Shown here piece after piece: positions 6,961 to 27,247 of a DNA stretch of 64,000 nt. The stretch is from positions 22,501 to 86,500 of IMG/VR virus record IMGVR_UViG_3300028822_000042; one strand, given 5' to 3'. Position 1 is the stretch's first letter; each line of letters starts with the position of its first letter. The notes below the pieces were generated by a model. That model ran no database searches. It was given only the letters and a program-made list of their open reading frames with translations, and was not told the DNA's origin. This DNA comes from a virus. Made by a program: the position numbers and the translations under genes.

Positions 6961-6980
6961 CAATGGAGGTAGGGTAGACA

Positions 6981-7655: not shown

Positions 7656-7675
7656 TTAATGTCATGTCTATCCTA

Positions 7676-7710
7676 AAGGGCTAGGGGAATAGGCTCCTAG
7701 CCCTTCTCTC
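7676..7710 (+). terminator. Hairpin (weak terminator or attenuator) after the tube gene
   Basis: AAGGGCTAGGGG-AATAGG-CTCCTAGCCCTT forms a 12-bp stem with one G.U pair; the U-tract is poor. Confidence 0.6.
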
Positions 7711-7725
7711 CCCTTAGGAGTCATA

Positions 7726-10275: not shown

Positions 10276-10967
10276 TGACTTCTCTCCATCATGCATTAGA
10301 TGCAATAAGAAAGGCAGATGATGCCTTATATGCTGTTCCGTTTCCTGATGGTACAGAGATAGTTTTTCGTCTGCCTTCTTATAGAAAAGCTCTACAGTAT
10401 TCTGAGCTTATATCTATTAGCAAAGAAGACTCTCAACTTTCTTCTCATATCTACAACTATATATTTAAATCTGTATGTCAGGATAAATTTCTGGCAAATG
10501 ATAGCGACATGCTTCCAGCAGGTGTCCCTGAGACGGTTGCTAAATTAGTCCTACTCTTCTCTGGTGTAGATGAATCTTCATTAGACTATACAGAGACTCT
10601 TCTTAACTCATATAGATCTAGAGTTAATAATGTCATCTGTACAATGAAGAGGTGTATCTGCAAAGTGTTTTCTGGGTATAAGTATCATGAGCTAGATAGT
10701 CTTAACTATCAGCAACTTATTGAAGTATTTGTTCAAGCAGAGAAAGTTTTACAAGATGAAGGTATAATATCTGAAGAGGGTCTTGTTATTCAAAGACCTG
10801 AAGATAGTAAACAAAAAGATCTTGATGTTGGACAAATGATCAATAAGGACATTAAGGAATACAATCAATTTGAACATGGTGGTTCTTCAGGACAATCCCT
10901 GTATGACAGCCCAGAATATAAATCTAGACTAGAACAAGAGAAGATGAGAAGGATGAGACAGTCTTAG
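10275..10967 (+). CDS. Probable second tail assembly chaperone
   Basis: TAATG-coupled to the previous gene; similar 'IVFR...C...PAGVPETVAKLV' pattern. Confidence 0.55.
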   Translation: MTSLHHALDAIRKADDALYAVPFPDGTEIVFRLPSYRKALQYSELISISKEDSQLSSHIYNYIFKSVCQDKFLANDSDMLPAGVPETVAKLVLLFSGVDESSLDYTETLLNSYRSRVNNVICTMKRCICKVFSGYKYHELDSLNYQQLIEVFVQAEKVLQDEGIISEEGLVIQRPEDSKQKDLDVGQMINKDIKEYNQFEHGGSSGQSLYDSPEYKSRLEQEKMRRMRQS

Positions 10968-10980
10968 GAGGGTACTTGAC

Positions 10981-13900
10981 TTGGTCAAAAAAATTCTTGC
11001 AGAAGGGGAACAACCAGGTTTACCTGGTGAAGGGTTCCAAGATAATTCTGGTTCTTTAACAGCTCTTGCATTTGGCGCTGGAGGTCTTGCCGCTACTGGA
11101 TTTATTCCTGTTGGCAAAGGTCGGATGTGGGATAAGTATCTCTCTGGAATTAGAAGTGTAGAAACTGCTTTTCCCGGCGCAATACTAAGAACATTTAGGA
11201 CATCTGAGTTCCTCTCTCCTCTTGAGAGCTGGTCCAAGCTTGGTCTTGCTGAAGCTGAGCTTAAGGGTGCTGGAGTATATTCAGATTACCTTAAGACTAC
11301 TTTTGGCCAGGGCATAAAGGCACTAGATGTTACTAGAACTGGATCTGTATTTGGTGAAGTCAGAGACGAGGCTGGAAGACTTGTTGGTATGGCAGCCCAG
11401 ATGGAGGCTGGTACTCTCAAGGGTTCTGCTATCTCTGACTACTATGCTCGTGTTCAAGGATTAAATCTTACTCAGTATGATTCTTTAAATGAATCTTTGC
11501 TCAGAGCCAAGTGGAAAGCTGCTAAGAGTACTCTTCCTTATAATGAATGGGTAAAGACTCTTGAGCCTCATCTGCGTAGAGAACGTATAATACTTGGGGC
11601 TAAGATTAGAAACAAAGCCAATCTCATGGGGCTTAATCTTGAACTCTCTGAGAGGATGGCTCGCAATGTAGCTAAAGCAGAAATAGCAGGAAATATCCTT
11701 AGAGCTAAGGCAGCATCTACTGCCGGTAGACTAAACAATCTACTTACAAAACCATTAGAAGTTCCTGTTCTTGGTGATGTTCTAGAGAAAATACCTGGCC
11801 TGCGTAGTATGGCCGTTCGTCCTGGCACCAACTTACAGATACTTGGAAGGCTTACTGCCAAAGGTGCTGTAGCTGGTGCTGCTTGGAAGGGTTTAGATTA
11901 TGTAGACTATCTTCGTTCTGAAGGGTCTATATGGGCTGCTCCACTGTCTGTAGCTGGTGGGGCTGCAGCTGGTGCTTTTATAGCTAGAAGACCTGGTATG
12001 AAATTCTCTAAAGGAGGATTGATTGCCGGTGCAGCTCTTGGTCTGTTTACTTCCATATCTCCTAGATTTAGTGAAGGCATATTCTATGGTGCAGCATCTA
12101 CTACTGCAGATATAAATCTTGCTAGATCAGAATTGTCTAGTACCGTTGGGATCACAGAGTCTCTTCAAGAACAAGAGGAAGTAACTTCTGGTCTTGTAAC
12201 TCCTCAAGCTGCATTAGCATTTGGTGGTATTGGTGCTTTAGGTGTTGGATTCGCTGACTATTTTTCCTTTCTTGGTCGCGCAAGTAAAGAGAAGTTGGCT
12301 ACTAAAGAACCGTTCTTTAAAGTTCTTGAACGATTCAGAGAGAGAGAGGGCAACTTAGTATCTAATTTGTGGGAGTCTTCTCTTGGTAAGAAAATAGCTA
12401 AAACTCCTATTCTAAAACATCTTACTAAGATTAAGAGTGCAGCAGGACTTGGCTTTGTTGCTGGCCTTGCTGCATGGCAAGGAATTACATCTGGTCTTTC
12501 TCTCCTTGCTGGCAATCCATTGGCAGCTATACCTGGTGTTCCTTTTATAGGAACCACAGAAACTCCTGAAGAGCTTAGTGCTGTTTATTCAGGTGAGAAA
12601 GATGTAGCTGTACGTAAAGGCAGATGGTGGGAGTTTGGTAGATCAACTGGTTACGAAGGTGGACGTATAGAATACTATCGTCCGCACTTTCTACATAGAT
12701 TAAGAACTAGAGCGTATCAGAAAGGACTGTATGGTTCAGAAGAGGAGAAATGGGAATACGACCCCATGATAAATCCTCTTAAAGCTCTTTTCGGCTCGGA
12801 TGAGTGGAAATACCACTATGAGAAAAAACATCAGTATGATAGACCTGCTCCTCTTACAGGCACATATGGAGAAGATATTCCGTTCATAGGGCCTCTAGTT
12901 GCAGCTACATTTGGTAAGCTCTTCAAGCCTCGTAAGAAAGTACGTCCAGAAGAATGGAATCTTGGTGGTGGTGAATATGTAGATATTACTGACCCTAGAG
13001 GAGAGACAGAACCTGCATATGGTCTTGGTGGTTTAGGTCCCGGTGCACCTGTTGCTCCAGAAGAAGGCAGCCAACTATTAAACCAACTTAACTATAGGAG
13101 ACGTGAAGCTGTAGGTCTTGTAGGTTTCCTTGAGGGAGCCCTTACTAAGAGAGCTATTGGTAGAGAAGAATTTTTTCAGAACAAAAGAACCCTAGAAGGA
13201 ATGGGAGAAGAGACAGGTTCTGAATACTGGTTATGGAAACATCTTAATCTTGGCGGTGGGTTAGGCACTACAGAAGCAGTTAGACGTTTTATTCCTAGAA
13301 CTCCTAGCTATCTAGAGACATATAATCCTCTAAAGAATGCTCTTCCTTCTTGGATGCCAGATGACTACTTTCTAGATCTAAAGCATGGTAACCCCTTCAA
13401 GAAGATACCTGAAGCAGAGATAAGACTTCCTGGTGAAGGCTATGCCACCCTACATCCAGAAGTTGAAGGTCTATCTCCTGAAGAATATCCATTAGCACAT
13501 AGAGTTAAGATCCTTGGCGATGTAGCTATGTGGTCTAATGAATATAAAAGCACAATTAGATATGCCAAGTCTAGATTAGATCAATTCTCTCCTGAAGAAG
13601 CTCAGATGATTCAGGAGACAGAGGAACAAGTAAGAGCCAAGAAGGAGAGAAGAGAGTTTTCTCCCTATATATTTGGTGGCGACCAACTAGAAGAGATGGA
13701 TGTAACTGTCTCTGAAGTCTTAAGTCCTAGACATATTAAGACTAAAGAGATGGGAGATATGATTCTTGAGATTCAAGGTATTGGTGCAGTTAAGAATACA
13801 AAGGAAGCCTTAAACTTTGTTCAGCAGTCTCTTGAAGGCAGCAAGGTATCTGTCCATACACCTAAACTAGAACCTAGAAGATACAGCTCTATAACTAGAG

Positions 13901-15162
13901 GTCCTAGAATGAAGGTAGTTCCTATGGTTGAGGGACAGCCTATTAGTTCTTTAATGGCAGAGGAAGGTATTTCTGAAGCGAGGCCACTAGAAGATGAGTT
14001 CAAACAATTACAATTTTCAACGGCAGAACGTCTTGCAGGTAGATTAGGTGAATATGTCACTCATGGAATAGAGACTCCGCTTGAATATCTAACTCCTGTA
14101 TCTCCAGCATCAAAACTTATTCGTAAGAGATCTCCAGTTGAAGAATATGTTGCTACAGAAGCTATAGGAACTGGAGCCTCATTCTGGGATAGGCCTGTAG
14201 AGAATTTTCTAAAGCCTGCTTATAACATGGCTAAATACAAAGCAGGTATAGTTGATGTCCCTGAAAACGTAGAAGAAAGACGAGATATTCAAGAATACTT
14301 CGATATGCTGAAGTGGGTTAAAATGTCTCGTCTTGAGAAGAAAGCTCGACAAATAGGTGATGATACAGCTGCTGCTGAATATAGCAAAGCTAAATCCTCT
14401 ACTGTATTTGGTGTAGATGTCTTTAAGAGTCCTGTAAATATTATGAGGGCTCTTCCTCGTCGAGAGAGAGATTTCTTTGGCGAATTTGTTGACGCAAGAA
14501 CAGAAGAAGAGAGAGCACAAATCCTTCAACTCATACCTGAGAACGAGAGAAGAATTTATCTTTCTCAATGGATGAGACAAGAAGAAAGAGCAGCCTATTC
14601 AAAGAGGAATGCAAAGATAGAGACAGAAGAGGACGATAAGATAATAAACATGACTGCTAGAATGAGAGCCTCTGAAGGTTTTTCTTATCCTGAAGGTGCA
14701 GAAGAACAATGGCTTAAAGAGACTGGCGGTCGAATAGAATTTGATGAGTGGATTAGAGAACGTAAAGCAGAAGAATACTTTGAGACTCACTCTCTCCCTG
14801 GAGCAGACTGGCTAGGTTGGCATCCATCAGTGGACCTTGAAGATGTTAAAATGCTCATGGTTGAGCAAGCAGGCCTTGACCACCATGACTTTGATCTCTG
14901 GGGACAGAGAAGAAGAGCCCTTGCACGTAAGCCATATATAGAACCATCTCTCCTTCAAGGTATGACTGAAAGAGCTGAATATGAAGATTCTTGGAAGGTT
15001 GCTGAGAATTCTAGAACTCTTACAAGAATGTTTAATGACCATCAAGCAGAAATATATGTTTCTCAGTTAGATACCCATGGAGATGACAATAAATATGATA
15101 TCCAGGTTAAGGATAGCCGCAGAGACCTTATTGAGAAAGCCTACAGACATCTAGGAGCTTAA
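10981..15162 (+). CDS. Tape-measure-like / ejection protein with multiple hydrophobic helices and a degenerate SNase-like domain
   Basis: 1393 aa, TTG start 9 nt after AGGAGG, directly after the chaperones. At least five Gly/Ala-rich hydrophobic stretches in the N-terminal ~520 aa. Confidence 0.65.
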   Translation: MVKKILAEGEQPGLPGEGFQDNSGSLTALAFGAGGLAATGFIPVGKGRMWDKYLSGIRSVETAFPGAILRTFRTSEFLSPLESWSKLGLAEAELKGAGVYSDYLKTTFGQGIKALDVTRTGSVFGEVRDEAGRLVGMAAQMEAGTLKGSAISDYYARVQGLNLTQYDSLNESLLRAKWKAAKSTLPYNEWVKTLEPHLRRERIILGAKIRNKANLMGLNLELSERMARNVAKAEIAGNILRAKAASTAGRLNNLLTKPLEVPVLGDVLEKIPGLRSMAVRPGTNLQILGRLTAKGAVAGAAWKGLDYVDYLRSEGSIWAAPLSVAGGAAAGAFIARRPGMKFSKGGLIAGAALGLFTSISPRFSEGIFYGAASTTADINLARSELSSTVGITESLQEQEEVTSGLVTPQAALAFGGIGALGVGFADYFSFLGRASKEKLATKEPFFKVLERFREREGNLVSNLWESSLGKKIAKTPILKHLTKIKSAAGLGFVAGLAAWQGITSGLSLLAGNPLAAIPGVPFIGTTETPEELSAVYSGEKDVAVRKGRWWEFGRSTGYEGGRIEYYRPHFLHRLRTRAYQKGLYGSEEEKWEYDPMINPLKALFGSDEWKYHYEKKHQYDRPAPLTGTYGEDIPFIGPLVAATFGKLFKPRKKVRPEEWNLGGGEYVDITDPRGETEPAYGLGGLGPGAPVAPEEGSQLLNQLNYRRREAVGLVGFLEGALTKRAIGREEFFQNKRTLEGMGEETGSEYWLWKHLNLGGGLGTTEAVRRFIPRTPSYLETYNPLKNALPSWMPDDYFLDLKHGNPFKKIPEAEIRLPGEGYATLHPEVEGLSPEEYPLAHRVKILGDVAMWSNEYKSTIRYAKSRLDQFSPEEAQMIQETEEQVRAKKERREFSPYIFGGDQLEEMDVTVSEVLSPRHIKTKEMGDMILEIQGIGAVKNTKEALNFVQQSLEGSKVSVHTPKLEPRRYSSITRGPRMKVVPMVEGQPISSLMAEEGISEARPLEDEFKQLQFSTAERLAGRLGEYVTHGIETPLEYLTPVSPASKLIRKRSPVEEYVATEAIGTGASFWDRPVENFLKPAYNMAKYKAGIVDVPENVEERRDIQEYFDMLKWVKMSRLEKKARQIGDDTAAAEYSKAKSSTVFGVDVFKSPVNIMRALPRRERDFFGEFVDARTEEERAQILQLIPENERRIYLSQWMRQEERAAYSKRNAKIETEEDDKIINMTARMRASEGFSYPEGAEEQWLKETGGRIEFDEWIRERKAEEYFETHSLPGADWLGWHPSVDLEDVKMLMVEQAGLDHHDFDLWGQRRRALARKPYIEPSLLQGMTERAEYEDSWKVAENSRTLTRMFNDHQAEIYVSQLDTHGDDNKYDIQVKDSRRDLIEKAYRHLGA

Positions 15163-15163: not shown

Positions 15164-18100
15164 ATGTTTGGACAAGATGAACGATCACCTCTATGGGGTT
15201 TAGCTGCTGGCGGAAGTCTTATTGGCGGTGCCGCATATGCTTTTAGTAAAAACAAATCAGCATTTGCTGATGTTCTTAAATCTAATCTAGATGTGGCCTC
15301 TTCAGTGGGGTCTAGAATTGCTGATGCTCCTGGCTTTGTTACAGTTAGAAATATGCCTTCAGCAGTAGGTTCTGTTAGTAGTGAATTGTCTTCACTAGTT
15401 CAGGATCTACCTAAGAGCACAATACGAGACATAGAACAACTTACATACAGATCTATCATGGCAGGCAAAACAGCAACCCATGAAGAAGCATTGTCAGCTT
15501 TGTCTGTAGTTAGAAAACAGGGATCTCCTCTAGAAGCATATGAAGCAGCAGTTGAGAAAGCTGGAGCATTAGGCGGAGACATAGGAGAGATAGAAAGAGG
15601 AATGAAAGGAATTGGAAGTGTTCCTTCAGAATCTATAGTTAGACGTGCAGGAGTTTCTGAGGGAGGATTTGGTTTTGGCTTTCAATATGAGAAATTTGCT
15701 GATCTTAGTGAAGATGCCCAATCCAGATATACAAGACTTAAAAGCAACCTTGAGTCAGCAGCTGGCAGAAAAATAGATATTAGAGTTAAGAACATAAGTG
15801 ATATTATTGACAATGAGGTTGTAACTACTCCTATGGCTACAGCAGAAATTGCAGGAGAGTCATTTAATATTCCACTTGCTGATACAAAATATACTTATGG
15901 AGGCAAAGGATATACTGCTAGATACGCAACTAGAGGGGCCTATACTGCTACTGGCCATAAGATGACTTATTCTCAACTTGCTGAACAGACACTTATAGAT
16001 GCTTTGTCTGGCGCACAATCTCATAGAGAAGTTAAGCAAAATTTACTTCAAGCACATCAAACACTGATAGATCAAATGAACTCTAGAGATTCAGATGCTA
16101 GAGCAGCAGCAGTATGGACTCTTCCTGAGCCTGTTGCTCCTTCTGGATCTAAAGCTAGAACACGTATACTTGCACAAGAGGCAATTGCATCAGGCAAGAT
16201 TACAGAGGAAGAAGTAATTAATCTTTTAGGACATGGCTTCTATGGATACACAAGTCCCTCTGCTGCAGCAAAGGGAACATTAGCTACTCAAAATCTAGCA
16301 ACTGGTCTCTATGGTCCTCTTGGGGCTTTTATGAGTGCAGAGCAGAAACCTACTCAATTCATTAGAGGAGAATGGGGTGTTACAGGAGAAGCTAAAAGAA
16401 GAGCTAAAGCTTTTAAAGGTGCATTCGGACAAGCATACTCTCGTTTAGATAGAAAGATGAAGGGAGAACTATATGACCCTCTAATATATGGTAAAGGAGT
16501 TAATCCCCTATCTGCAGAAGCTTACTCCTCTCCTCAATTACTTACATTTTATGCAAAGCCTGCTGCAAAGAAAGAATATGGTATTGGCTATAAGTCAGGA
16601 GCTCTTAATGAACTTCTTTCAGCAGAAGAAGGAGTTATATCTAAATCTGTTACCGGACAGATGGAACATGAAAGAGTAATTCAGAAGAAGATTGCTCTTG
16701 ATGAAGGTTTTAGAGTTAACAAACAAATCTCAGAACAACTTAAAGATGTACCTCCAGGTTCTGGAGTTTCTCCTGTATTCTTAGGCGAAAATCAGTTTGT
16801 TGGAATAGAGAAAGGCACAGGTAAAGAAATAATAACTAGTAGAGGAGATGCTATTGAAAATGTTGTTGGTGCTGAGATTACTGGGCCTAATGAGGCTAAT
16901 GTTTTTATAAGAGAACGTAGAAGATTGTCAGAAGATGAATATTGGAAGTTCTTCTCAGAAGAGAACAAATTTATGGCTTCTGCTGCTTCTGAAGAGAAGA
17001 TGAGAAAGACTATTAAAGCAGCTGGGGTAGGAGACCTCAGAAAAATAGCTGGTCAGGAAATAGAAGCTGTGTTCTCCGGTAAGCTTGTTGGCAGAAACAA
17101 AATGGCACTTCTAAACCAGCAGATAGAAGCAGCAAGTATGTTTCTTGGTAGAAAGATAGATAGAGGAACAATTGCTTCTCCTGCGGCGCAAGAATTCTTA
17201 GCTGACCCTATAAAAGCTCTCAATGTAAAAAGTCTTATGGCTTCAAGTGCAGCAGATGCTGATTTTCAAATACAGAAGAACTTGGTTGGCTTAACAAGAA
17301 AGTGGGGCTTCTCTGGATTTGAAACACAGTTAACATTTGGTCTTACTGATCTTGATGTAGCAGCTAAGCTTGAGAAACAGACAAACTTTAGAGGCTTTTC
17401 TAGATTAGTTGAGAGAGCACCTGGTGTAGTCGGTCTTGGCAAAATGAAGCTTGGCGATAGAGCAGCTGAAGGTGGAGCTGGAAGAATAGGATCATTTGAA
17501 ACTACAGGTTTTAGAGCCTTGGCGATGAAAGGCGAAACAGGAGAAAGCTTTGCTGCTGAACTAAGAAATAGACTTCTTGGTAAAGGTGATATTACAGAAT
17601 CAGACAGAATGTTTGCCTCTGTTATTGGAGAACAAGGCTTCTTTGATAAGTTTAAACGTAGAGGTTTAGAAAATTTAACAGATATAGATCCTGAAGAACT
17701 GTTTGTTCCTGAAGGTAGAGAAGTTAGTCTTGGTCGGAGGATGAAAGAACTAGGAGGATCCTCTTCTTTATATGTCCCAGGTCTTGAGACATCTCCTGAT
17801 ATAATGGCTCCGTCTATCGTTAAAGGTGAAAGAGTACAGTCTCCAGCCGCTAAAAGCATAATGTCTTTCCAAGGCTCTCTTAGTAAACATGTCGCCGGTA
17901 AAATAGGAGATGAAGAACTTGAGGCTGCAGCTGCCACTCTCAGAACTAATCTAGCTAGAGTCTCAGAGCAGCAAGCATTTGCTAAGAGTAAAGTACTTGG
18001 CTCTAGAGTTCTTACAGGCATCAGAGGAAACTTTGCCAAGGATAGAGATACTTTTAGAATATCTAAATCTGCAGCAGAAGGAATGTTTGATGAGCTTATT

Positions 18101-19549
18101 GACAGAGCTGAATCAGGCGAACAAGTAGATTTCCTTAAGCAACAGAGAAAAGCAGCCATGGAAGAACAGGTTCTTACTGGAGGAATGTGGAGACACCCCA
18201 CTACAGGACCTGAGTCATTTCAGTTCGTAAAATACAAAGTAGATAAAGATCTAGCTGATGGGATGCTAGCTGCTCCTAAAGAATATGGGAAGCTTCATAT
18301 AGAAGGCAAGACTAGACCTGTAGATGTTTCTGCTATGGTTGGGTTTAAAGGTGACTTTGACAGAGATCAATTCGTTATATCTGCAATAGCCGATAGAGAT
18401 AACTCTAATAGAATAGCTAAACAGATAGATCATGGCATGAAAGAACAGTATAACAGATATGTGTTTAATCATTATGCTATGAAAGATTCCATCGAAGGCA
18501 GACTAGGCAAAAGTTCTGTCCTTGATATGACTTCAAAAGAAGCCCTTGAGATGGGATACAAACAACACACAACAGCAAAGACCTCAACTGGTAAAGTTAA
18601 TCTAGCTTTACAAAAACTAAAGATTGGTGTTTCAGCTGCAGCTCCTGAAAAGTATAGACCTTTAGCTGAAATGTTCTGGCATTTAGAAGAAGCGGCTATC
18701 AGTGGCAAGCATGGTGTACTAGAATCAGAACTTTATCAGGCAATTGCTAGTTCGGTTAATAAAGGTGGAGAACGGGGAATTAGAGATATGGAGGCTGTAA
18801 TAAAAAGTCTCATGGGAGAAGCAAGAACAATAAGAGGTGAAATAACTGATTCTTTTGGTAATAGGATTACTCAACAGATTGATTATAATCCAAGACAATG
18901 GGCTGAGACAGCTGTCGGTTCGTTAGATGCTGTTAGAGACGATGTTAATGCTGTTATGCGTTCGGCTTCATTTGCTAAAGGAAATGTAGACGCAAATATA
19001 AAACAGCTTACTGAACAATTCCATGCTAGAAGATCTGGTTCTGTTGATATAGCTCAAAGCCTTATGCAAGGAACAAGTGATGAGTTTACAACTAAAACAT
19101 CAAGAGCAATGAGACGAGGAGCTGTAAGAGCTAAAGGATTTATGTCTGCAGTTAAGAAAGGTTCTAAACCTCTTATGGTTGGAGCTGCAGCTGCTGCAGG
19201 TATTATGCTTATGTCACCTAGCACATCAGGTGTACTTAGAAAACCTGAAGGCTCTGCTGGCGGACGTAATATGCCACCAGAAGACTATGGTCCACCTAAT
19301 GGCGGTCCAATACAACCACCACCACCAGGACCAAATAGATCTCCTAGAACCTATGACATAGGTAGCGGAAACAGAACATCTCATGCTAATATTAGAATGC
19401 GTATTAACGATTTAGATTCTTCATCTAGAGACTTTATGGCTAGTGCTCGTGCCCTATCAGATGGTTCTGGAGTTAGAATTAATGCTAAAGATGACAGAAG
19501 TATCTTAGATCCTAGATTACTCGCTAGTAAGATCCATGAGAGGCTATAG
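15164..19549 (+). CDS. Putative single-chain two-barrel (beta+beta'-like) virion RNA polymerase at the tape-measure locus
   Basis: Ordered motifs: AEEGVISKS, KFFSEENK, IEAVFSGKLVGR...QQIE, GGAGRIGSFE...AL, WRHPT, GFKGDFDRDQ, TAKTSTG, AAISGKHG. Confidence 0.75.
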   Translation: MFGQDERSPLWGLAAGGSLIGGAAYAFSKNKSAFADVLKSNLDVASSVGSRIADAPGFVTVRNMPSAVGSVSSELSSLVQDLPKSTIRDIEQLTYRSIMAGKTATHEEALSALSVVRKQGSPLEAYEAAVEKAGALGGDIGEIERGMKGIGSVPSESIVRRAGVSEGGFGFGFQYEKFADLSEDAQSRYTRLKSNLESAAGRKIDIRVKNISDIIDNEVVTTPMATAEIAGESFNIPLADTKYTYGGKGYTARYATRGAYTATGHKMTYSQLAEQTLIDALSGAQSHREVKQNLLQAHQTLIDQMNSRDSDARAAAVWTLPEPVAPSGSKARTRILAQEAIASGKITEEEVINLLGHGFYGYTSPSAAAKGTLATQNLATGLYGPLGAFMSAEQKPTQFIRGEWGVTGEAKRRAKAFKGAFGQAYSRLDRKMKGELYDPLIYGKGVNPLSAEAYSSPQLLTFYAKPAAKKEYGIGYKSGALNELLSAEEGVISKSVTGQMEHERVIQKKIALDEGFRVNKQISEQLKDVPPGSGVSPVFLGENQFVGIEKGTGKEIITSRGDAIENVVGAEITGPNEANVFIRERRRLSEDEYWKFFSEENKFMASAASEEKMRKTIKAAGVGDLRKIAGQEIEAVFSGKLVGRNKMALLNQQIEAASMFLGRKIDRGTIASPAAQEFLADPIKALNVKSLMASSAADADFQIQKNLVGLTRKWGFSGFETQLTFGLTDLDVAAKLEKQTNFRGFSRLVERAPGVVGLGKMKLGDRAAEGGAGRIGSFETTGFRALAMKGETGESFAAELRNRLLGKGDITESDRMFASVIGEQGFFDKFKRRGLENLTDIDPEELFVPEGREVSLGRRMKELGGSSSLYVPGLETSPDIMAPSIVKGERVQSPAAKSIMSFQGSLSKHVAGKIGDEELEAAAATLRTNLARVSEQQAFAKSKVLGSRVLTGIRGNFAKDRDTFRISKSAAEGMFDELIDRAESGEQVDFLKQQRKAAMEEQVLTGGMWRHPTTGPESFQFVKYKVDKDLADGMLAAPKEYGKLHIEGKTRPVDVSAMVGFKGDFDRDQFVISAIADRDNSNRIAKQIDHGMKEQYNRYVFNHYAMKDSIEGRLGKSSVLDMTSKEALEMGYKQHTTAKTSTGKVNLALQKLKIGVSAAAPEKYRPLAEMFWHLEEAAISGKHGVLESELYQAIASSVNKGGERGIRDMEAVIKSLMGEARTIRGEITDSFGNRITQQIDYNPRQWAETAVGSLDAVRDDVNAVMRSASFAKGNVDANIKQLTEQFHARRSGSVDIAQSLMQGTSDEFTTKTSRAMRRGAVRAKGFMSAVKKGSKPLMVGAAAAAGIMLMSPSTSGVLRKPEGSAGGRNMPPEDYGPPNGGPIQPPPPGPNRSPRTYDIGSGNRTSHANIRMRINDLDSSSRDFMASARALSDGSGVRINAKDDRSILDPRLLASKIHERL

Positions 19550-19552: not shown

Positions 19553-22500
19553 ATGACAAAGAAGAAAAAACCAACTCGTGAAGAGCACCTAAAGTATATG
19601 AAGACAGACACTTCATCTATACTTGGTAAGTTAGGTTCTTTTCCTGTACGTAGGTTACATCAAGAAAGAGACTATTCTACCTCTCCTCGCACATCACTTA
19701 GATATATATCATCTACGATTGAGAGAAGTCGTCCTTCATTTGATAAAGCAAGAACAACTGGATTTGATTATAATCCAGGTTATGTAATTCCTTCAGACAT
19801 TGAGTTAAATACAGGTTTTAGTGACGAAAGAGAACTTCAGTTAGAGAACGACTTTGCTGAACCTATTAGCAGTGAATCTATTGAAGGCGGAACAAATAGA
19901 CCTGATCTACTAGAGCAAGAAATAGAAGAAGCTATTTCTAAAGATACTAAGCTAGCTACAAAATTTTCTTTTAATACTTTTTCAGATGATTTTCTCATCA
20001 TAAATGATGTCTTTCTCTATAACGTTCCTACAGCAAGTATCTCAATTCGGTCACAAACTGATGTTTTTGTTGGTGAGACACTTAGAACTAGAGCACCTGT
20101 AATCTCTACAGAAGGTCGACAAGATTTCATTTTGAATTTAAGTTTAGTCTTTAATCCTGGTAGAGAACAAACAGAAGATTTACGTAGACTTATATCTGAA
20201 CTATCAAGACATCCTCTTGTCTTTATCTTCAATAACAAAGTTAGAAAGTCAATTGGTGTTGGTGAATTCGACACCACAATGTTTATTCTTGAAGCGGGTA
20301 CACTTAGAAGCTCATCTGAATCTGTAGGTGCTGTAGTACTAGATTTACAGATGCACTATTTCAATCATAAACCTTTCAGCAATAACTTCTTCTTCAACGC
20401 GAAGATGCCCGGTATTTCATATTCTTCTGAGATTGAAGACTCAAAGGCAAGAGAGCCACTTAGTTTAGATAGTCTTGAAGGATATGAGTCGTCTGATTAT
20501 ATTCTTGACCAAAAAGCACAAGATATAAGAGAAAGAATAAGAAAGAGTGTTACTCAAGTTGCAGATTCTAAGACAAGAAATATTCCTGTAAACTTTCCTT
20601 CAGAGTCTGATTCTTGGAAGTATTATGCAGATCATCTTACTGATTTGACTCCTATCATCTCTGAGAAGCCATCAGACTATATGAGCTTTTCTGTTAAGGT
20701 CTTCGAAGTAAAAGACCCTCCTAAAGAAGCAAAACAAGGACTTGGTACGATTCAGGGCGCCTTAACAAGCACAGTTACTCGTCCTTCTGTCAAGTCTATG
20801 TATGATGCTACTAAGCCTCTTCCTGAATCCAAAACATACCAACAGAAAGAGGTAGAGGCTACGTATGATTCTAATGTACAGCCATCTGCTCTTGAAGGCA
20901 CACCTATTGATTTTTATAGTTATGACTCTGGCAGGTCTGACAGTATTATACTTACTGCTTCTCCTGGTGTTGTTCATAGTGATGCCTCAAGTAGACTTTC
21001 TGATTTAATTAATGTTGGGAAGGATGAAGGCGCCCCTGCAATTCAACCTGGATTAATTCTACATATGCAAAAAGTAGCTAATAGATTTCCAGGTAGAAAA
21101 ATTTTAGTTAATTCAGGTTCCAGGTTTCCTAAAAACCCAGAGAAATTCTATTCTAAACCAGTAGAGAGAAGAAGTAGACATGCTACTGGAAACGCCATGG
21201 ACTTTAAGGTTCAAGGCGTATCAAATAGAGAACTTTTTAAGTTCTTAAGAACTCTTCCTAATTGTGGATCAGGATACTATCCTAATTCTACATTCTGCCA
21301 TGCTGATTATAGATCTAGAAAGGATTATTGGGTTGATATTTCTGGCCCGGGAGAAAAATCACATTATCTTAGAGGCCAAGACAGAGCAGATTACCTTAGA
21401 CAACATGTCTATGATGGGTCTGCACAATCAGACAATGTAGAGGCAGAAGCCGACAAGAGAAGTCGTCAGGCTAAATCAAAACCTCATGAGCAACGTAAAG
21501 ATGCTGCCGCTCCTAAATCAAGTGAATACGCTAAACAAGAAGAAGAATTATACAAGAAACAAACAAAACAAGATCCTTCTATTGGACATAAAGTAAACGA
21601 CCCAGTAAAGAGGTCGTGGCAGGCTAGAGCTGATTGGATAGAAAAACTCTATAGAGAAGGAGGTTGGATCTATTATTCAGGAGAAGATAATAAGATAAGA
21701 AATGTATTCTATAAGGAGTACTCTGTAGAAATCTCTTCTGGTATAGATTCAAATAGAGATCCTGACATTCTTAGAAATATTGTTTGTTCTGCAATCTCAA
21801 TTCAGTTTGGTCATAGAATTGCTCCTATGAGATTGCTTAGTCAACATACATACACTTATCAATTTCTTGGCGCTGGTAATAAATCTGGACAAATGGTTTT
21901 TACTTTCTCTGGCAAGAAAGGTCGTGAGTCTGCAGATGCTCTGAAGAGACTAATTATTTTTGCTAGAGATAATGCAAGAAATTTTGGAGGTGTAATCAAA
22001 GAAGCAGGAACTATATATATAAATGGCCTCAACTACAATAATGGAGACACTAATACAATTCTGTCTCTGCTTAATATAGAGAATATCATTATTACAGATA
22101 TTAAGGAGTCTTCTCTTCCGGACTCTGTAGATAAACACCAACTTGTACTTGAGTTTATTATTCAGGATTTTCAAGAAGAGACTTTTGAAAAACTATTTGT
22201 TGAATCTGTTGAGAATAGAAGAAGAATAATAAAACAAATATTTAAGTATCTTACTAGAAACAAATATGGTGTGGTTCCTGTCCCTTCAGTGGCCACCTAT
22301 GATCCATCTCAATATAGACCGTATGTTTTAAACAAGGAGACTCCTTCTTGGGTTTCAAGTATTATTAGCAGAGCGGCTACTATAACTAGAAATATAGAGA
22401 AGCAGATGCCTCCTCTTGACTGGAAGTTAGAGCCTAGATCTTCAAGAACATGGAGAGACATATATGCAGAGTGGGGAGCTGATAAAGTAATAAAGGGAGA

Positions 22501-25500
22501 CTATTCAAATGTCTCTTCTTCAGACTTCAATGCTTCTTCTTTAACTGTAGGTAGAAGTGTGTCTTTGTCTGCAGTTCAAGACCTAACAGAAAGACGCAAG
22601 TTCGAGAGTAATGGAGGATCAGAAACCAACAATACTCATAATGATCTATATAGAGAATGGCTATCACAGATGACCAACCTCACTAAAGAGGTCAAGAAGT
22701 ATATAGAAGACGAGAAGAACTTTGAAAAGTACTTTGGTTCTCTTGGTGATGATTTATTAGATGCTGTTACTCAGACTATGGGTGAGTGCTATGGAGATAT
22801 GCTTCTTCCTAATCTTCCACATGCTAACATTCCCGTACCTCCAGAATTCTATGTCTATGACGACTCAGATGAAAGCCCTATCTTATCCAATATTACAGAC
22901 CCTGCTAATATGGAGAAGTTTTTAAAAGAACATATTAGGAATGAAGTTCAATCTATATCTTTGTACATGAGAGAACGTTGGCTTGGTGGATCATACTTAG
23001 CAAAGAATCTTCCTCGTATATTAGAAAATAGGAAATATTACGATAGACAGATGCAAGGAGAGTTTGATTTTATAGATAATTTTTGGAAGATATATCAAGA
23101 AGGAGCAACAGCTTGGGAACCAATAACATATAAAGAGGACCCTTCTATTGATAACAATTCTCAAGTTAAGAAGTGGAAAGAATTTACTTATGCTGGTATA
23201 GGAGCCACTAATCCTGAAGACGCTAGATTTAAATACATGGAAAGTCTTGTTGGCTTAAGTCAATATCTTAATAAAGGTAGACATTGGCAAACAAGTTATA
23301 CTGAACAAGATAACCGTAACCTAGTGACAAATATATATGGCGACCTGTATGATAAGACATCTTTTGGTCCCAATCCACAATATAACAAAGCAGATGCTGC
23401 ATCTAATGGCAAAGCTCTTCCAGAACGAACACTAACTCAGATACAAGCGATAACAAACCAAGCGTATTCTAAAGTAGCTAAAGACAATAATGTAGCTATT
23501 CCTATTGGTTCTGATAGAACCGCGTTACCAAACGGTGATATTGTTATAGGAGACACGAAAGAAGAAAGATTAGCTGAAGAATACTCAACAAGTGTTGCTA
23601 TGATTAATGCAGCTAAAGAGAGTGTCGATAGGATGAAGAGACGCTCTCAGAATAGCTTATTGGGGTATATCGGTAGTGTTGGTGGTCTTGCTCTTGTCTC
23701 TATGCTTGATTTTACTGACACCTATGATGTTGATGCTTCTGATTTAATATATAGAGGAAATGCTGATGCTGTAAATAGAGCTAGCGCAGCACAGCATATA
23801 TCTAATGTAATTAAAACTTTAGATCATAATATTAAAGAAAACGTAGATGAAACCAACCAAGAAGACAAGATGGCATCTATGTTTGCTGGGATGGCTATTG
23901 GCTCTAAGGCAGATGATCTTAGCATTCGAAGAGCATATCCAACATTTAAAATATATTTTATTGAAGAAGACGCTCAAGATAGCGAAATGATAGATGGGAA
24001 GGTCGTCAGAGCATTTGATGACTTTTACAGTTATTCAGCTATTCAAGAAATAAAGATAACTAGGTCTCGCAAAATAGCTTCTGATCTTGCTGTTATAAGA
24101 ATGACTAATGTTGGTGGTCTTCTTCTAAGACGTAGATTTGGAGATAGAGATCCTAGACAAAATAGTACTGGTGAAATGCAAGGTGTTTTTGCAGATACCG
24201 CTAAAGAGCATCCATTTGAGAAGATGGTTCTTCAAGATGGAGTAAAGGTTCAAATCAGACTTGGTTATGCCTCAGACCCAAGTAATCTAGAGTCAGTATT
24301 TCTTGGTCAGATAGTTGAGATAGCGCCTTCAGAACATGGCAAAATCTTAGAAATAATGTGTCAGGGATATGGAGCTGAACTTGAATCTATTGAACTTGGC
24401 GAGCTAGAGGATGGACCTATATATACTAGCACTCAACAAGCTCTGTCTTCTGCTATCATTCAAGATAGCGTGTCTACATTTGGTAGACAAAGTAATTTTA
24501 ATAGATTCAATCCTGCAGAAATAAGACATGCTTGGACAGGAGGTACTGGAGATAGTATTCTTGGAAAAATAAATCCTGCTACTGCTGTCAGAGATTGGGC
24601 AGACCATAATATGGATAAACACTTCCAGAAGTACACCTTCTTGAATTTTCCTCAAGATGATAATATTTTTGCTCCTCCTCCTTCTGCTTATGCCTCAGCA
24701 TGGATGAGGTTTTATAACAATGCCTGTATCTACAGACCTTTAAAACAAACTCCATGGCAAATATTCAAAGAACATGAACTTAGACATCCTGGATATATTT
24801 CTATGGCTGTACCATATGGACATTCACCTAGAATGACAATGTTCTTTGGTTCAAAGATGCAGCACTATTGGTCTAAACCTCCTTCATCTTTAGAACTATT
24901 TGCGTCTGAGAATGCATATAATGCTCTTGTTAGAATGAGAGGCAAAGTTGCTTCAGGCGATTTTAAGTCTTTACAAGGTTTAATTAGTCGACTGACTAAA
25001 GAGTCAGGAGAAAAGCCTAAGCTTATATCTGCGATGCTTAGAGATATTGCTTTGTCTGGTGCTCCTACAAGAACATCTCAAGCAATTGCTAAAGAGACAG
25101 GAAGATATAAACCATTTAGAAACTATCATTACTTTGATAGCTATCACCATATTTTAAAAAATGAAATTCGTACTTCTACAGATGGAACATTTAATGAAGT
25201 AGAAATACTATTCTTTACTGATGAAGATGATATTCAAGAACAATATGCAGAAGATCTAATAAAAAGCATTCAAAGTCTTGGATCAAAACAGGAAGGTGTA
25301 TTTTCTGTTAAGCTAGATGAAAATATACTTGAAAGTTCACTAAGGTCTTACAGAGAAGAATTTCCGTCATGTGTCACTGTAGATATGGCAAGAAGGTATG
25401 CTCAGGGTATTTTTGCAAGACACCTTAGAGACGCCTATAAAGGAGAGCTTATTGTTCTTGGCAAAGAAACACTAAAGCCATATGATATTTGTTATCTCAA

Positions 25501-27237: not shown

Positions 27238-27247
27238 GAGCTGATCT

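What the first reader, a model, noticed from the sequence alone, without database searches (positions are those of the whole stretch)
15164..19549. Hidden single-chain two-barrel RNA polymerase in the tape-measure locus of a contractile-tailed jumbo phage
Seen in the sequence: the 1461-aa ORF has, in cellular RNAP order, the following matches. Beta-like: 'AEEGVISKSV' (aa ~487; cf. FEDSILVSER), 'KFFSEENK' (K595/K602; cf. the two DPBB lysines in KMAGRHGNK), 'AGQEIEAVFSGKLVGRNKMALLNQQIE' (cf. [25 protein letters not shown]), 'GGAGRIGSFETTGFRAL' (cf. GGQRFGEMEVWAL). Beta'-like: 'KVLGSRVLTG' (cf. RVDYSGRSVI), 'ISKSAAEGMF' (cf. LPKKMALELF), 'WRHPTTG' (R1010; cf. NRAPTLH), 'GFKGDFDRDQ' (aa 1064-1068, nt 18353..18367; cf. 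YNADFDGDQ), then bridge-helix-like 'TTAKTSTG' and trigger-like 'AAISGKHG'. Established knowledge: single-chain two-barrel phage RNAPs exist (SPbeta YonO, crAss-like phi14:2 gp66), and Thermus siphophage P23-45 has a virion RNAP fused to its tape measure. Inference: this is a compact (~700-aa core) beta-beta' fusion packaged in the tail or virion and injected to transcribe early genes, here in a myophage lineage where it would probably be annotated as hypothetical or tape measure.
Basis: partly seen in the sequence, partly recalled or inferred. Interest (0 to 1): 0.95.

Follow-up and report, generated by a model that had tools for sequence, protein, structure and literature searches.

The report
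RNA polymerase in phage tape-measure slot
A 1461-residue gene in the tail-gene block of an uncultured contractile-tailed phage folds like the two catalytic subunits of cellular RNA polymerase joined in one chain, keeps their active-site residues, and carries the tail end of a tape-measure protein, so the phage probably injects its own transcription enzyme.

Summary
Pfam, PHROGs and PDB sequence searches gave nothing usable. An AlphaFold2 model of aa 380-1300 (pLDDT 87, pTM 0.83) matches only RNA polymerases. Residues 380-773 match the beta-type subunit (PhiKZ nvRNAP chain C, Z 11.5-11.8). Residues 822-1300 match beta' (Z about 10). QDE-1 and RDR2 span both halves (Z 10.2-10.7). In 131 relatives, some only 15-20% identical, the only invariant columns are P872, R1010, D1064, D1066 and D1068; K595 and K602 are at least 90% conserved.

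The family has 175 clusters at 50% identity and is unannotated. The gene lies between orthologues of Bacillus phage 0305phi8-36 gp145 (virion protein by mass spectrometry) and hub gp147. That is the slot of tape measure gp146, whose C-terminal module it shares. Acinetobacter phage ME3 gene 36 is a distant cultured relative.

Packaging and injection remain inferred. "Jumbo" is slightly overstated: a complete relative is 197.7 kb. This scan found the same family earlier on other DNA (e1-5820270, e1-5820280).

The parts
15164..19549 (+). Whole gene, 1461 aa (P0001): single-chain two-barrel RNA polymerase in the tape-measure slot
15185..15244 (+). N-terminal Gly/Ala-rich hydrophobic helix (aa 8-27), conserved in the family; low model confidence
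15371..16300 (+). N-terminal region aa 70-379: helical bundle (aa 73-151) and alpha/beta domain (aa ~180-380). No convincing known fold. Weak, collinear resemblance to the N-terminal halves of RNAP second-largest subunits (Z 4.7-5.5)
16301..17482 (+). beta-like module (aa 380-773), matching PhiKZ/AR9 nvRNAP chain C and E. coli beta 665-1244
16946..16969 (+). KFFSEENK: K595 and K602, candidate pair of basic residues of the beta-like barrel; at least 90% conserved in 131 sequences
17627..19063 (+). beta'-like module (aa 822-1300), matching E. coli beta' 23-1354, Pol IV NRPD1 and Pol I A190
17993..18400 (+). beta'-like double-psi beta-barrel (aa ~944-1079), which also aligns to isolated DPBB domains (designed DPBB 7dww, CDC48-N, VAT-N)
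18191..18199 (+). R1010-H-P1012 (WRHPTTG); R1010 in 157 of 157 and P1012 in 155 of 157 full-length relatives
18353..18367 (+). D1064-F-D1066-R-D1068, candidate metal-binding triad; invariant in 131 of 131 aligned sequences
18533..18640 (+). Long helix aa 1124-1159 (model H745-780), bridge-helix candidate with conserved T1142, Q1150 and K/R1153
   Evidence: assignment inferred
18644..18763 (+). Two helices flanking a low-confidence loop (aa 1181-1186, pLDDT below 50) that carries K1182-H1183: trigger-loop-like element
   Evidence: assignment inferred
19169..19231 (+). C-terminal Ala/Gly-rich hydrophobic segment (aa 1336-1356)
19379..19546 (+). Conserved C-terminal module (aa ~1406-1461, ending ..DDRSILDP..KIHERL), shared with the C-terminus of 0305phi8-36 tape measure gp146
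10981..15162 (+). Upstream neighbour ORF1 (1393 aa), orthologue of 0305phi8-36 gp145 (virion protein by mass spectrometry) and ME3_35; its stop lies 1 nt before the RNAP start
19553..26008 (+). Downstream neighbour ORF3 (2151 aa), orthologue of baseplate hub gp147 and ME3_37, with a Peptidase_M15 domain (aa 476-586); it starts 3 nt after the RNAP stop
9634..10967 (+). Two small genes in the position of the 0305phi8-36 tail chaperonin pair (gp143/gp144); function not tested here
   Evidence: position only
5068..9551 (+). Tail sheath (5068-6960) and three tube-like paralogues (6981-9551)

Best explanation
The gene encodes an active single-chain two-barrel RNA polymerase. A beta-like half (aa ~380-773, perhaps from ~185) supplies a barrel with two conserved lysines (K595, K602). 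A beta'-like half (aa 822-1300) supplies the barrel with the metal-binding triad D1064/D1066/D1068, an R1010-x-P1012 element, a bridge-like helix, and a mobile loop with K1182-H1183. This part is shown by fold and conservation, and I put it at about 0.9. The polymerase core is embedded between a hydrophobic N-terminus and the C-terminal module of the lineage's tape-measure protein. The gene is expressed from the tail operon, between the gp145-like virion protein and the gp27-type hub. My inference, at about 0.7, is that the protein is built into the tail, in or at the end of the tube lumen and anchored to the hub by its C-terminal module as a tape measure is. A further inference, at about 0.55, is that it is ejected ahead of or with the DNA on contraction, folds or refolds in the host, and transcribes the first phage genes without host RNA polymerase. 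This is the myophage counterpart of the P23-45 tape-measure-fused virion RNAP.
For: FOLD. The AF2 model of aa 380-1300 has pLDDT 87.1 and pTM 0.83. In Foldseek against the PDB, 29 matches have E <= 0.001, and all 50 listed rows are RNAP beta-type or beta'-type chains. VIA-align against 48,161 representative chains gives 16 chains at Z >= 8, and ranks 1-19 are all two-barrel polymerases. These include PhiKZ nvRNAP chain C (Z 11.5, rmsd 4.7, 288 aligned), RDR2 (Z 10.7, 374 aligned across model residues 4-921), AR9 (Z 10.4), QDE-1 (Z 10.2, 394 aligned), P74-26 gp62 (Z 7.7) and, at ranks 23-24, P23-45 gp96 (Z 6.4). From rank 20 the list turns to isolated DPBB domains aligned to model residues 565-709. 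The beta' match is E. coli 6utx_DDD, Z 10.0, 377 aligned, model 443-921 against chain 23-1354.

ACTIVE SITE. Of 131 sequences, some only 15-20% identical, the only invariant columns are P872, R1010, D1064, D1066 and D1068. K595, K602, P1012, E1175 and K1182 are at least 90% conserved. All 157 full-length members have a DxDxD.

VIRION CONTEXT. Gene order is the same in 11 of 11 IMG/VR loci. ORF1 matches gp145 (2.2e-70) and ORF3 matches hub gp147 (1.3e-26). gp145 and gp146 are annotated as virion proteins by mass spectrometry. orf146 was assigned as tape measure, and only its last 60 residues are conserved within its own lineage (passages read). A family HMM hits the last 165 aa of gp146 at 33.7 bits. 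The next best of 691 real ORFs scores 7.5 bits, and the best of 600 shuffles scores 6.4. hhalign gives E 8.9e-5 with probability 60%. Gaps to the neighbouring genes are 1 and 3 nt.

OTHER POLYMERASES. No second RNAP domain and no sigma factor was found by Pfam in a complete 197.7-kb relative or in 3-4 partial ones. The searches were PF00623, PF04542 and PF05183, each with positive controls.
Against: There is no experimental evidence for this family: no virion proteomics, no activity assay, no transcript mapping. Sequence methods do not link it to any known RNAP, so the identification rests on a predicted structure plus conservation. The gp146 link is short and modest. hhalign probability is 60% on the C-terminal piece and 30% on the whole protein, and it is not significant with the narrower profile (probability 0.7%). 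A folded polymerase core of about 100 kDa cannot sit folded in a tail-tube lumen, so an unfolded or metastable state, or another location, has to be assumed. No conserved promoter-like motif was found upstream of genes in the complete relative (a crude k-mer method). If the enzyme only makes early RNA, what transcribes later genes is unknown. The N-terminal 380 residues have no assigned function.
Confidence: 0.68

Rival explanations
1. It is a real RNA polymerase but not a virion component. It is made late from the tail operon and transcribes late or middle genes in the same infection, as YonO does for SPbeta late genes. Its position among tail genes would then be incidental.
For: YonO is a non-virion single-chain two-barrel RNAP (abstract seen in the listing, PMC5467207). 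No other RNAP or sigma factor was found in the complete relative, so one enzyme might serve all phases. No virion data exist for this family.
Against: An enzyme first made from a late structural operon cannot start that operon's own transcription. The gene sits in the tape-measure slot in 11 of 11 loci. It keeps the C-terminal module of a mass-spectrometry-verified tape measure. It has conserved hydrophobic N- and C-terminal segments that a soluble cytoplasmic polymerase does not need.
Confidence: 0.17
2. It is a two-barrel polymerase with another activity: an RNA-dependent RNA polymerase or a primer- or DNA-synthesising enzyme (QDE-1/RDR-like or PolD-like). It might, for example, prime replication or act on host RNA after injection.
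For: The only solved single-chain structures that span both halves of the model with high scores are RDR2 (Z 10.7) and QDE-1 (Z 10.2). QDE-1 has both DNA- and RNA-dependent activity (abstract seen in the listing, PMC9508822).
Against: Each half separately matches DNA-dependent multisubunit RNAP subunits as well or better (Z 10-11.8). Pfam RdRP (PF05183) is not detected in P0001 or in relatives, although it rings in 0305phi8-36 gp99. The phage relatives characterised so far (gp66, gp96, gp64, YonO) are DNA-dependent RNAPs, according to the abstracts and passages read. No PolD chain appears in the 50 rows listed.
Confidence: 0.08
3. It is a structural tail protein (the tape measure) whose polymerase fold is an exapted, catalytically dead scaffold.
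For: It occupies the tape-measure slot and shares the C-terminal module. Family length is narrow (most members 1430-1640 aa), as expected of a ruler.
Against: The only invariant columns over 131 very divergent sequences include exactly the residues an active polymerase needs: R1010 and the three Asp. A dead scaffold would not hold these while the rest falls to 15-20% identity.
Confidence: 0.04

Closest known systems
Thermus phage P23-45 gp96 (also P74-26, G20c, TSP4): virion two-barrel RNAP fused to the tape measure (PMC10770324, passages read)
   Same: Both are single-chain two-barrel RNAPs with a DxDxD, and both are encoded in and joined to the tape-measure protein of a long-tailed phage. 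In both, the proposed role is injection and transcription of the earliest genes. A structural match is present (8h2m_A Z 6.4, 311 aligned; 8h2n_A Z 6.4, 321 aligned).
   Different: gp96 belongs to a siphophage. It is 5,002 aa, with the RNAP as the N-terminal ~1,100 aa of a very long ruler. Here the phage has a contractile tail, the whole protein is 1461 aa, and the polymerase fills most of it, leaving only termini of tape-measure type. No sequence similarity was found. Structurally it is less close than PhiKZ/AR9, QDE-1 or RDR2. P23-45 also has a second, non-virion RNAP (gp64); none was found here.
PhiKZ and AR9 non-virion multisubunit RNAPs (7ogp, 8que, 7s00), beta-like subunit (chain C)
   Same: These are the best structural matches to the beta-like half (Z 10.4-11.8, 282-289 aligned, model residues 1-394). 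They are phage enzymes, very diverged from cellular RNAP, in large myophages.
   Different: They are split into four or five polypeptides and are not tail-encoded. Here the beta and beta' parts are one chain. Pfam RNAP domains are not detectable here.
QDE-1 (Neurospora) and RDR2 (maize): cellular single-chain two-barrel polymerases; by extension YonO and 0305phi8-36 gp99 (Pfam RdRP PF05183)
   Same: One chain carries both barrels. They are the only solved chains that align across the whole model (7w84_A Z 10.7, 374 aligned; 7y7p_A Z 10.2, 394 aligned).
   Different: There is no PF05183 match and no hhalign or phmmer link to gp99. Each half also matches multisubunit beta and beta' equally well. 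The biological context differs: RNA silencing versus a phage tail.
crAss-like phage phi14:2 gp66 virion RNAP (abstract seen, 10.1101/2020.03.07.982082, listing)
   Same: It is a virion-packaged single-chain two-barrel RNAP with a DFDxD motif, inside a large protein of the structural gene block. Weak BFVD matches to crAss-like proteins exist (cr50_1 E 2.2e-3, cr118_1 E 2.7e-3).
   Different: gp66 comes from a podophage-like virion and is not in a tape-measure slot. 6VR4 was not among the 50 rows listed by any PDB search here, so its closeness is undetermined. No sequence similarity was found.
Bacillus phage 0305phi8-36 gp146 (tape measure) and Acinetobacter phage vB_AbaM_ME3 gp36 (hypothetical)
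   Same: Both occupy the same slot between gp145-like and hub genes. gp146 shares the C-terminal module. ME3 gp36 (1603 aa) shares the beta-like barrel region including KFFSxxSK (26.1 bits; hhalign E 7.8e-5, probability 62%). ME3 gp36 has GGDHDQDQ at aa 1217. Its BFVD model, in two pieces whose lengths sum to 1603, matches my model at E 2.3e-8 and 4.5e-5.
   Different: gp146 is 2537 aa, has no DxDxD and shows no detectable polymerase region. ME3 gp36 is not found by phmmer against 191 family members or by the narrower profiles. It is a separate, distant branch.

Membership tests
Two-barrel (double-psi beta-barrel) RNA polymerase superfamily | Two DPBB domains in one catalytic unit, in the order beta-like then beta'-like | tested here: met
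   Model residues 1-394 match beta-type chains (Z up to 11.8) and 443-921 match beta'-type chains (Z about 10). QDE-1 and RDR2 span both. Isolated DPBB domains align to model residues 565-709. This rests on a predicted structure (pLDDT 87.1).
Two-barrel (double-psi beta-barrel) RNA polymerase superfamily | DxDxD metal-binding triad on the beta'-like barrel | tested here: met
   D1064/D1066/D1068 lie inside the segment that aligns to DPBB domains. They are invariant in 131 of 131 sequences, and a DxDxD is present in 157 of 157 full-length members. Residue-level superposition on beta' was not available.
Two-barrel (double-psi beta-barrel) RNA polymerase superfamily | Two basic residues on the beta-like barrel | tested here: inconclusive
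   K595 and K602 are invariant in 38 sequences and at least 90% conserved in 131. They lie on strands of the beta-like half (model E215-218 and E223-229). A divergent member has spacing 8 instead of 7. Equivalence to the beta lysines could not be checked residue by residue.
Two-barrel (double-psi beta-barrel) RNA polymerase superfamily | Bridge helix and trigger-loop-like element after the catalytic barrel | tested here: inconclusive
   There is a 36-residue helix (aa 1124-1159), followed by helix, flexible loop (pLDDT below 50, aa 1181-1186, with K1182 in 150 of 157 and H1183 in 135 of 157) and helix. The region lies within the beta'-aligned range. The assignment is by position, not by residue alignment.
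Cellular-type multisubunit RNAP beta' / beta (Pfam RNA_pol_Rpb1_*, Rpb2_*) | Significant match to the Pfam domain models | tested here: not met
   No Pfam RNAP family matched P0001 at E <= 1. PF00623 was absent from G000-G004, while it rang in 14 of 14 control genomes.
YonO / eukaryotic RdRP family (Pfam PF05183) | Match to PF05183 | tested here: not met
   PF05183 gave no match to P0001 and was absent from G001-G003 and ME3, while 0305phi8-36 gp99 scored 69.1 bits. phmmer of gp99 against G001 ORFs gave nothing below E 1.
P23-45-type tape-measure-fused virion RNAP | Polymerase and tape-measure sequence in one polypeptide, encoded in the tape-measure slot | tested here: met
   The slot is shown by orthology of both neighbours to gp145 and gp147 and by 11 of 11 syntenic loci. 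The C-terminal module is shared with tape measure gp146 (33.7 bits with controls; hhalign E 8.9e-5, probability 60%). The shared part is short (50-165 aa), and the ruler function of this protein is not shown.
P23-45-type tape-measure-fused virion RNAP | Homology of the polymerase part to gp96 | tested here: inconclusive
   The structural match is only Z 6.4 (311-321 aligned), below many other RNAPs. There was no sequence match to any PDB chain.
Virion RNA polymerase (functional class) | Protein present in virions and active on injected DNA | not testable with these tools
   The evidence is contextual only.
Classical tape measure protein | Mostly extended alpha-helical ruler whose length scales with tail length | tested here: not met
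   aa 380-1300 are predicted with confidence as globular alpha/beta polymerase domains. Tail length is unknown for this uncultured phage.

The most novel reading that the evidence does not exclude
In a widespread lineage of ~200-kb contractile-tailed phages (175 clusters at 50% identity, plus a distant branch in cultured Acinetobacter phage ME3), the tape measure itself has become a complete beta-beta' RNA polymerase. It would be stored unfolded or metastable in the tail tube, anchored to the hub by the retained tape-measure C-terminus, fired into the cell on contraction, and refolded into the enzyme that starts the infection. It may even be the only phage RNAP, serving all phases, since no second polymerase or sigma factor is detectable. 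Together with P23-45, that would make 'ruler that refolds into a polymerase' a recurrent solution rather than a Thermus-phage oddity.
Probability: 0.35. Interest if true: 0.9.

Novelty: new variant of a known kind. Interest (0 to 1): 0.75.

Why it matters
Virion-delivered two-barrel RNA polymerases are so far known from crAss-like podophages, from PhiKZ/AR9-type myophages (multisubunit, head-packaged) and from one group of Thermus siphophages, where the enzyme is fused to the tape measure.

This finding adds a large, wholly unannotated family in contractile-tailed phages. It has 175 clusters at 50% identity, and every member is labelled hypothetical or has no name. The polymerase sits in the tape-measure slot and keeps the tape-measure C-terminus.

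It suggests three things:
- Host-independent early transcription may be far commoner among large environmental myophages than gene annotation shows.
- The link between tape measure and polymerase may be recurrent.
- A 2021 survey of jumbo phages, which counted RNAPs only in PhiKZ-like phages, 0305phi8-36 and c-st (PMC7824862, passages read), missed at least ME3.

ME3 is cultured, so the idea can be tested directly. The enzyme is also one of the most compact beta-beta' fusions. It is equidistant in structure from multisubunit RNAPs and RNAi polymerases, which is of interest for the early evolution of the two-barrel fold.

Tried and rejected
SEQUENCE ROUTES THAT GAVE NOTHING. Pfam and PHROGs on P0001 gave nothing usable (the only row is HEAT_EZ at E 0.3, below its cut-off). 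phmmer and a 38-sequence profile against PDB sequences gave only chance-level rows. tblastn against 50,697 GenBank phage records gave no match at 1e-5. The ESM Atlas search for ORF1 gave no usable hit.

SEARCH FOR A SECOND POLYMERASE OR SIGMA FACTOR. The A1 profile found one copy per record in G000-G005. PF00940 found nothing, but its control also rang nowhere, so that search is uninformative. PF04542, PF00623 and PF05183 found nothing in the relatives, and their controls worked. Pfam on ten large ORFs of the complete relative gave replication and repair enzymes, several with inteins, and no polymerase candidate. phmmer with 0305phi8-36 gp99, ME3_309 and ME3_274 against the ORFs of the complete relative gave nothing. 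None of this excludes a very diverged second RNAP. ME3_309 (798 aa, early region) may be the BFVD hit A0A172Q0S6. I matched them by length only, and ME3_309 has no DxDxD.

PROMOTER SEARCH. Exact 11-mers in intergenic DNA and enrichment of 7- to 9-mers upstream of 138 genes of the complete relative found only ribosome-binding-site-like words and a tRNA arm. The method is crude and the result is no evidence of absence.

ORF1 AS THE TAPE MEASURE. I first read ORF1's variable length (1379-2610 aa) as the sign of a tape measure. I rejected this because the extra length consists of one to three inteins at fixed sites.

LINKS THAT FAILED WITH NARROW PROFILES. The A1 profile over the ME3 and 0305phi8-36 records found nothing. 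hhalign of A3 or A1 against ME3_36, gp99 and gp146 gave probabilities of 0.1-6.8%. phmmer of ME3_36 against 191 family members gave no hits. Only the broad 131- to 157-sequence profiles found the links.

N-TERMINAL 420 RESIDUES. Foldseek against the PDB gave no match at E <= 0.001. VIA-align gave no chain at Z >= 8.

ABSENCES AND UNUSED TOOLS. 6VR4 (gp66) and PolD were not among the 50 rows listed in any PDB fold search; this is only an absence from the listed rows. Complex prediction, the look-up of sequencing runs and read laying were not used. Supplementary files of papers were not opened, so the virion proteome table of 0305phi8-36 was seen only through the GenBank notes.

NOT IN PRINT. 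Searches, and passages of PMC7824862, PMC13282480, PMC10770324 and PMC2147016, showed no description of this family or of ME3 gp36 as a polymerase. The library lacks most subscription journals.

Full report
WHAT IS THERE. The window is bases 22501-86500 of an 86.5-kb IMG/VR virus record estimated to be 45% complete. ORF 15164-19549 (+) encodes 1461 aa (P0001). The ORF lies in one long plus-strand structural operon:
- major head protein (fragment at 15-1154)
- tail sheath (5068-6960, phrog_16991, 1.6e-63)
- three tube-like paralogues (6981-9551)
- two small genes (9634-10967)
- three very large genes: ORF1 at 10981-15162 (1393 aa), P0001, and ORF3 at 19553-26008 (2151 aa, Peptidase_M15 at aa 476-586)
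- baseplate wedge genes (26797-28510) and fibres.
P0001 starts 1 nt after the ORF1 stop, and ORF3 starts 3 nt after the P0001 stop.

NO SEQUENCE-LEVEL ANNOTATION. Pfam, PHROGs, PDB sequences (single sequence and 38-sequence profile) and tblastn against GenBank phages give nothing usable. The protein does have a family. A word-indexed search found 56 proteins at E <= 0.001, 35-68% identical and almost all about 1460 aa, unnamed or 'hypothetical'. A 10-sequence profile of the core (A3, 913 positions) was searched against 1.84 billion cluster representatives. It found 175 proteins at E <= 0.001, 152 at <= 1e-10 and 55 at <= 1e-30. Full-length hits were nearly all 1430-1640 aa (longest 1696), with the core at about aa 400-1300. 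No fused form longer than that is among the 150 rows listed.

FOLD. I gave AlphaFold2 aa 380-1300 with 37 homologues as alignment. The result was pLDDT 87.1 and pTM 0.83.
- Foldseek against the PDB: 29 matches at E <= 0.001, and every one of the 50 rows listed is a large RNAP subunit, of both beta type and beta' type.
- VIA-align second look: model residues 1-394 (aa 380-773) align to PhiKZ nvRNAP chain C (Z 11.8, rmsd 4.7, 289 aligned), AR9 nvRNAP chain C (Z 11.0) and E. coli beta 665-1244 (Z about 10). Model residues 443-921 (aa 822-1300) align to E. coli beta' 23-1354 (Z 10.0, 377 aligned) and Pol IV NRPD1 (Z 10.2).
- A Foldseek-independent scan of 48,161 representative chains gave 16 chains at Z >= 8. 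Ranks 1-19 are all two-barrel polymerases. RDR2 (Z 10.7, 374 aligned) and QDE-1 (Z 10.2, 394 aligned) each span the whole model. P74-26 gp62 (Z 7.7) and P23-45 gp96 (Z 6.4) also appear. From rank 20 the list turns to isolated double-psi beta-barrels (CDC48-N, VAT-N, designed DPBBs) aligned to model residues about 565-709, the segment that contains DFDRD.
- The tool's own notes warn that Z of 7-8 can be background. The RNAP rows stand above that, cover whole domains, and are the only kind of protein at the top.
- BFVD gave 9 matches at E <= 0.001. The best are an unnamed viral protein (E 1e-10), both halves of a 1603-aa protein of Acinetobacter phage ME3 (2.3e-8 and 4.5e-5), a 'minor tail protein' of an uncultured siphovirus (5.7e-8), a second ME3 protein of 798 aa, and a Microcystis phage protein.

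ACTIVE SITE.
- In 38 of the 56 homologues, K595, E599, K602, R1010, P1012, D1064, D1066, D1068, K1153 and K1182 are invariant.
- I collected the 157 members of at least 1300 aa among the 191 proteins in hand. Each has a DxDxD. When aligned to the A3 profile, R1010 is kept in 157 of 157, P1012 in 155, and the three Asp in 153 with 4 alignment gaps. K1182 is kept in 150, E1175 in 147, K602 in 110 and K595 in 105; the last two columns have 32-37 gaps because the beta-like part aligns poorly for distant members.
- A MAFFT alignment of 131 of these 157 includes sequences only 15-20% identical. I dropped every second one of the close P0002-P0056 set. Exactly five columns are invariant: P872, R1010, D1064, D1066 and D1068. 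K595, F597, K602, Q652, R803, P1012, E1175, K1182 and D1443 are at least 90% conserved.
- That pattern is what purifying selection on a working two-metal polymerase site would leave, and it is hard to reconcile with a dead scaffold.
- The long helix at aa 1124-1159 is a plausible bridge helix. The helix-loop-helix at aa 1161-1200 has a low-confidence tip (aa 1181-1186) that carries K1182-H1183, and it is a plausible trigger-loop element. These two assignments are by position only.

THE TERMINI. A model of aa 1-420 (pLDDT 76.8, pTM 0.56) shows a low-confidence hydrophobic helix (aa 9-29), a helical bundle (73-151) and an alpha/beta domain (about 180-400). Foldseek finds nothing at E <= 0.001, and VIA-align finds nothing at Z >= 8. 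The N-terminal halves of three RNAP second-largest subunits do appear, aligned to model residues 184-420: vaccinia Rpo132 (Z 5.5, 197 aligned), plastid beta (Z 4.8) and Xanthomonas beta (Z 4.7). This is a hint that the beta-like part starts near aa 185, no more. The C-terminal 160 aa hold an Ala/Gly-rich hydrophobic segment (1336-1356), a Pro-rich stretch, and a conserved end ..DDRSILDP..KIHERL.

CONTEXT AND THE TAPE-MEASURE LINK.
- Synteny. All 11 IMG/VR loci with a relative show the same order: sheath, tube, two tube paralogues, two small genes, ORF1 homologue, RNAP. Of these, 8 of 11 also show the ORF3 homologue and baseplate genes. The other three end in or near that gene; my ORF caller lists only closed frames, and I did not check further.
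- ORF1 length. ORF1's apparent length variation (1379-2610 aa) is due to one to three inteins at fixed sites, not to a stretchable ruler.
- Two named phages with the same layout. In ME3 the order is sheath, 'major structural proteins', tail chaperonin, ME3_35, ME3_36 (hypothetical, 1603 aa), ME3_37 'baseplate hub'. In 0305phi8-36 it is gp143/gp144 chaperonins, gp145 'virion structural protein', gp146 'hypothetical tape measure protein', gp147 'baseplate hub'. gp145 and gp146 are noted as identified in virions by mass spectrometry.
- Flanking orthology. ORF1 is homologous to gp145 (2.2e-70) and ME3_35 (1.7e-64). ORF3 is homologous to ME3_37 (1.4e-28) and gp147 (1.3e-26) (the database was six proteins).
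- The middle genes do not match by simple search. An HMM of the 157 full-length members hits the last 165 aa of gp146 (33.7 bits) and aa 516-654 of ME3_36 (26.1 bits; this region includes the KFFSxxSK element). As controls I used 691 real ORFs of those two phages (next best 7.5 bits) and 600 shuffles (best 6.4 bits).
- hhalign with the 131-sequence alignment agrees moderately. The gp146 C-terminus gives E 8.9e-5 at probability 60% over 47 columns, including the D-[DR]-R-S motif (probability 30% when the whole gp146 is given). ME3_36 gives E 7.8e-5 at probability 62% over 117 columns. Narrower profiles fail.
- Published context. Hardies et al. 2007 assigned orf146 as tape measure from its correlation with tail length. 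They found that only its last 60 residues are conserved with its BtI1/BwK1 counterpart, that the chaperonin pair is one gene removed from it, and that gp147 contains a T4 gp27 hub domain (PMC2147016, passages read).
- Conclusion. P0001 therefore sits in the tape-measure slot of this phage lineage and keeps the one part of that tape measure that is conserved.

OTHER POLYMERASES.
- A complete relative (197,730 bp, terminal repeats, 100% by CheckV) and three or four partial ones each have one copy of this gene.
- They show no match to Sigma70_r2, to RNA_pol_Rpb1_2 or to RdRP. Controls rang in 11 of 14 genomes, in 14 of 14 genomes, and in 0305phi8-36 gp99 respectively. The T7-type search had no working control.
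- 0305phi8-36 has a YonO/RdRP-like gp99 in its early region and a tape measure without DxDxD.
- ME3 and this lineage have the polymerase in the tape-measure slot.
- Whether later genes here use host RNAP, this enzyme, or an undetected one is open.

MECHANISM.
- Shown: a two-barrel polymerase fold with a conserved catalytic constellation; the tape-measure-slot position; the shared C-terminal module; co-transcription with tail genes, judged from spacing.
- Inferred: the protein is assembled into the tail with its C-terminus at the hub, as tape measures are. It is expelled on contraction, before or with the DNA. Its hydrophobic termini engage the envelope. The polymerase then transcribes the entering DNA independently of host RNAP.
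- Difficulty: a folded core of this size cannot lie folded in the tube lumen. Either it is stored unfolded or metastable, as is proposed for tape measures in the P23-45 paper, or it sits elsewhere in the virion.

KNOWN VERSUS NEW. Single-chain two-barrel phage RNAPs (YonO, gp66, gp96, gp64) and the fusion of tape measure and polymerase in P23-45 are known. Four things are new here:
- a separate, sequence-unrelated family
- contractile-tailed phages as its carriers
- a protein that is mostly polymerase, with only tape-measure-type termini
- its breadth (175 clusters).
A 2021 survey stated that apart from PhiKZ-like phages, 0305phi8-36 and c-st, no jumbo phage encodes an RNAP, although ME3 was in its set (passages). 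A 2026 jumbo-phage review does not mention such an enzyme. None of my seven literature searches found it described. I class it as a new variant of a known kind.

EARLIER SCAN NOTES. The same family was noted before in this scan on other genomes, and follow-up agents reached similar verdicts (e1-5820270, e1-5820280). I treated those notes as leads, and everything above was tested here.

Noticed in passing
L001 4651-9990, L003 4653-9962, L004 4653-9989, L008 5313-9977, L009 2148-9980, L010 4521-9908 (homologues of window 10981-15162): The gp145-like virion protein upstream of the RNAP carries one to three inteins (start Cys, end His-Asn, followed by Ser/Thr) at three fixed sites. The sites correspond to positions after residues 554, 762 and 1280 of the window's intein-free copy. 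L009 has all three; L008 has a 165-aa mini-intein. Inteins in a tail or virion protein are unusual, and they mark very conserved motifs (GRWWEFGR|S, GGxLG|T, DWLGW|xPS). L004 was judged from the occupancy map only.
   Followed up: partly
L032 9739-10233 (0305phi8-36 gp146 aa 2355-2519) and window 19064-19546: The C-terminal ~50-165 aa module (hydrophobic segment plus ..N-I-x-D-D-R-S..) is shared between a 2537-aa tape measure without a polymerase motif and the RNAP family. The slot protein looks modular: variable body, constant C-terminal anchor.
   Followed up: partly
L036 39453-41849 (ME3_309, 798 aa, minus strand, early region of phage ME3): A 798-aa hypothetical protein has the same length as BFVD entry A0A172Q0S6, which matched my RNAP model (E 8.2e-6, 590 columns). 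It may be a second, non-virion polymerase of ME3. It has no DxDxD and no sequence link to the family or to gp99. The identity with the BFVD entry is assumed from length only.
   Followed up: partly
G000:C1:4310-8650 (L013), upstream of the window: A 1446-aa protein has PHROG hits to a DNA polymerase exonuclease subunit (aa 184-444), an endonuclease (688-795) and kinases (1089-1203). It is a large multidomain protein just before the packaging genes.
   Followed up: no
G000:C1:10329-13397 (L013): A 1022-aa terminase large subunit carries an N-terminal region that hits DNA-primase PHROGs (aa 136-359).
   Followed up: no
window 6981-9551: Three consecutive tube-like paralogues all hit phrog_9206, which PHROGs labels 'major head protein'. 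In 0305phi8-36 the equivalent genes are tail tube gp140 and its paralogue gp141, so the PHROG label looks wrong.
   Followed up: no
window 57364-60693 (minus strand): Sugar-modification genes lie at the switch to the minus-strand block: a DegT/DnrJ aminotransferase (1.8e-90), a sulfotransferase and an FkbM-type methyltransferase.
   Followed up: no
L021, L026-L028 (complete relative G001, 120-173 kb and 29-39 kb): The replication block holds ThyX, split DNA polymerase III alpha and class II ribonucleotide reductase, each interrupted by inteins or homing endonucleases. It also holds a Ro60/TROVE protein, RtcB ligase, a CCA-adding enzyme and a heptosyltransferase.
   Followed up: no
window 53166-56753: A 1195-aa tail spike or fibre protein has up to 11 repeated matched stretches to phrog_4636 and phrog_6002.
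   Followed up: no
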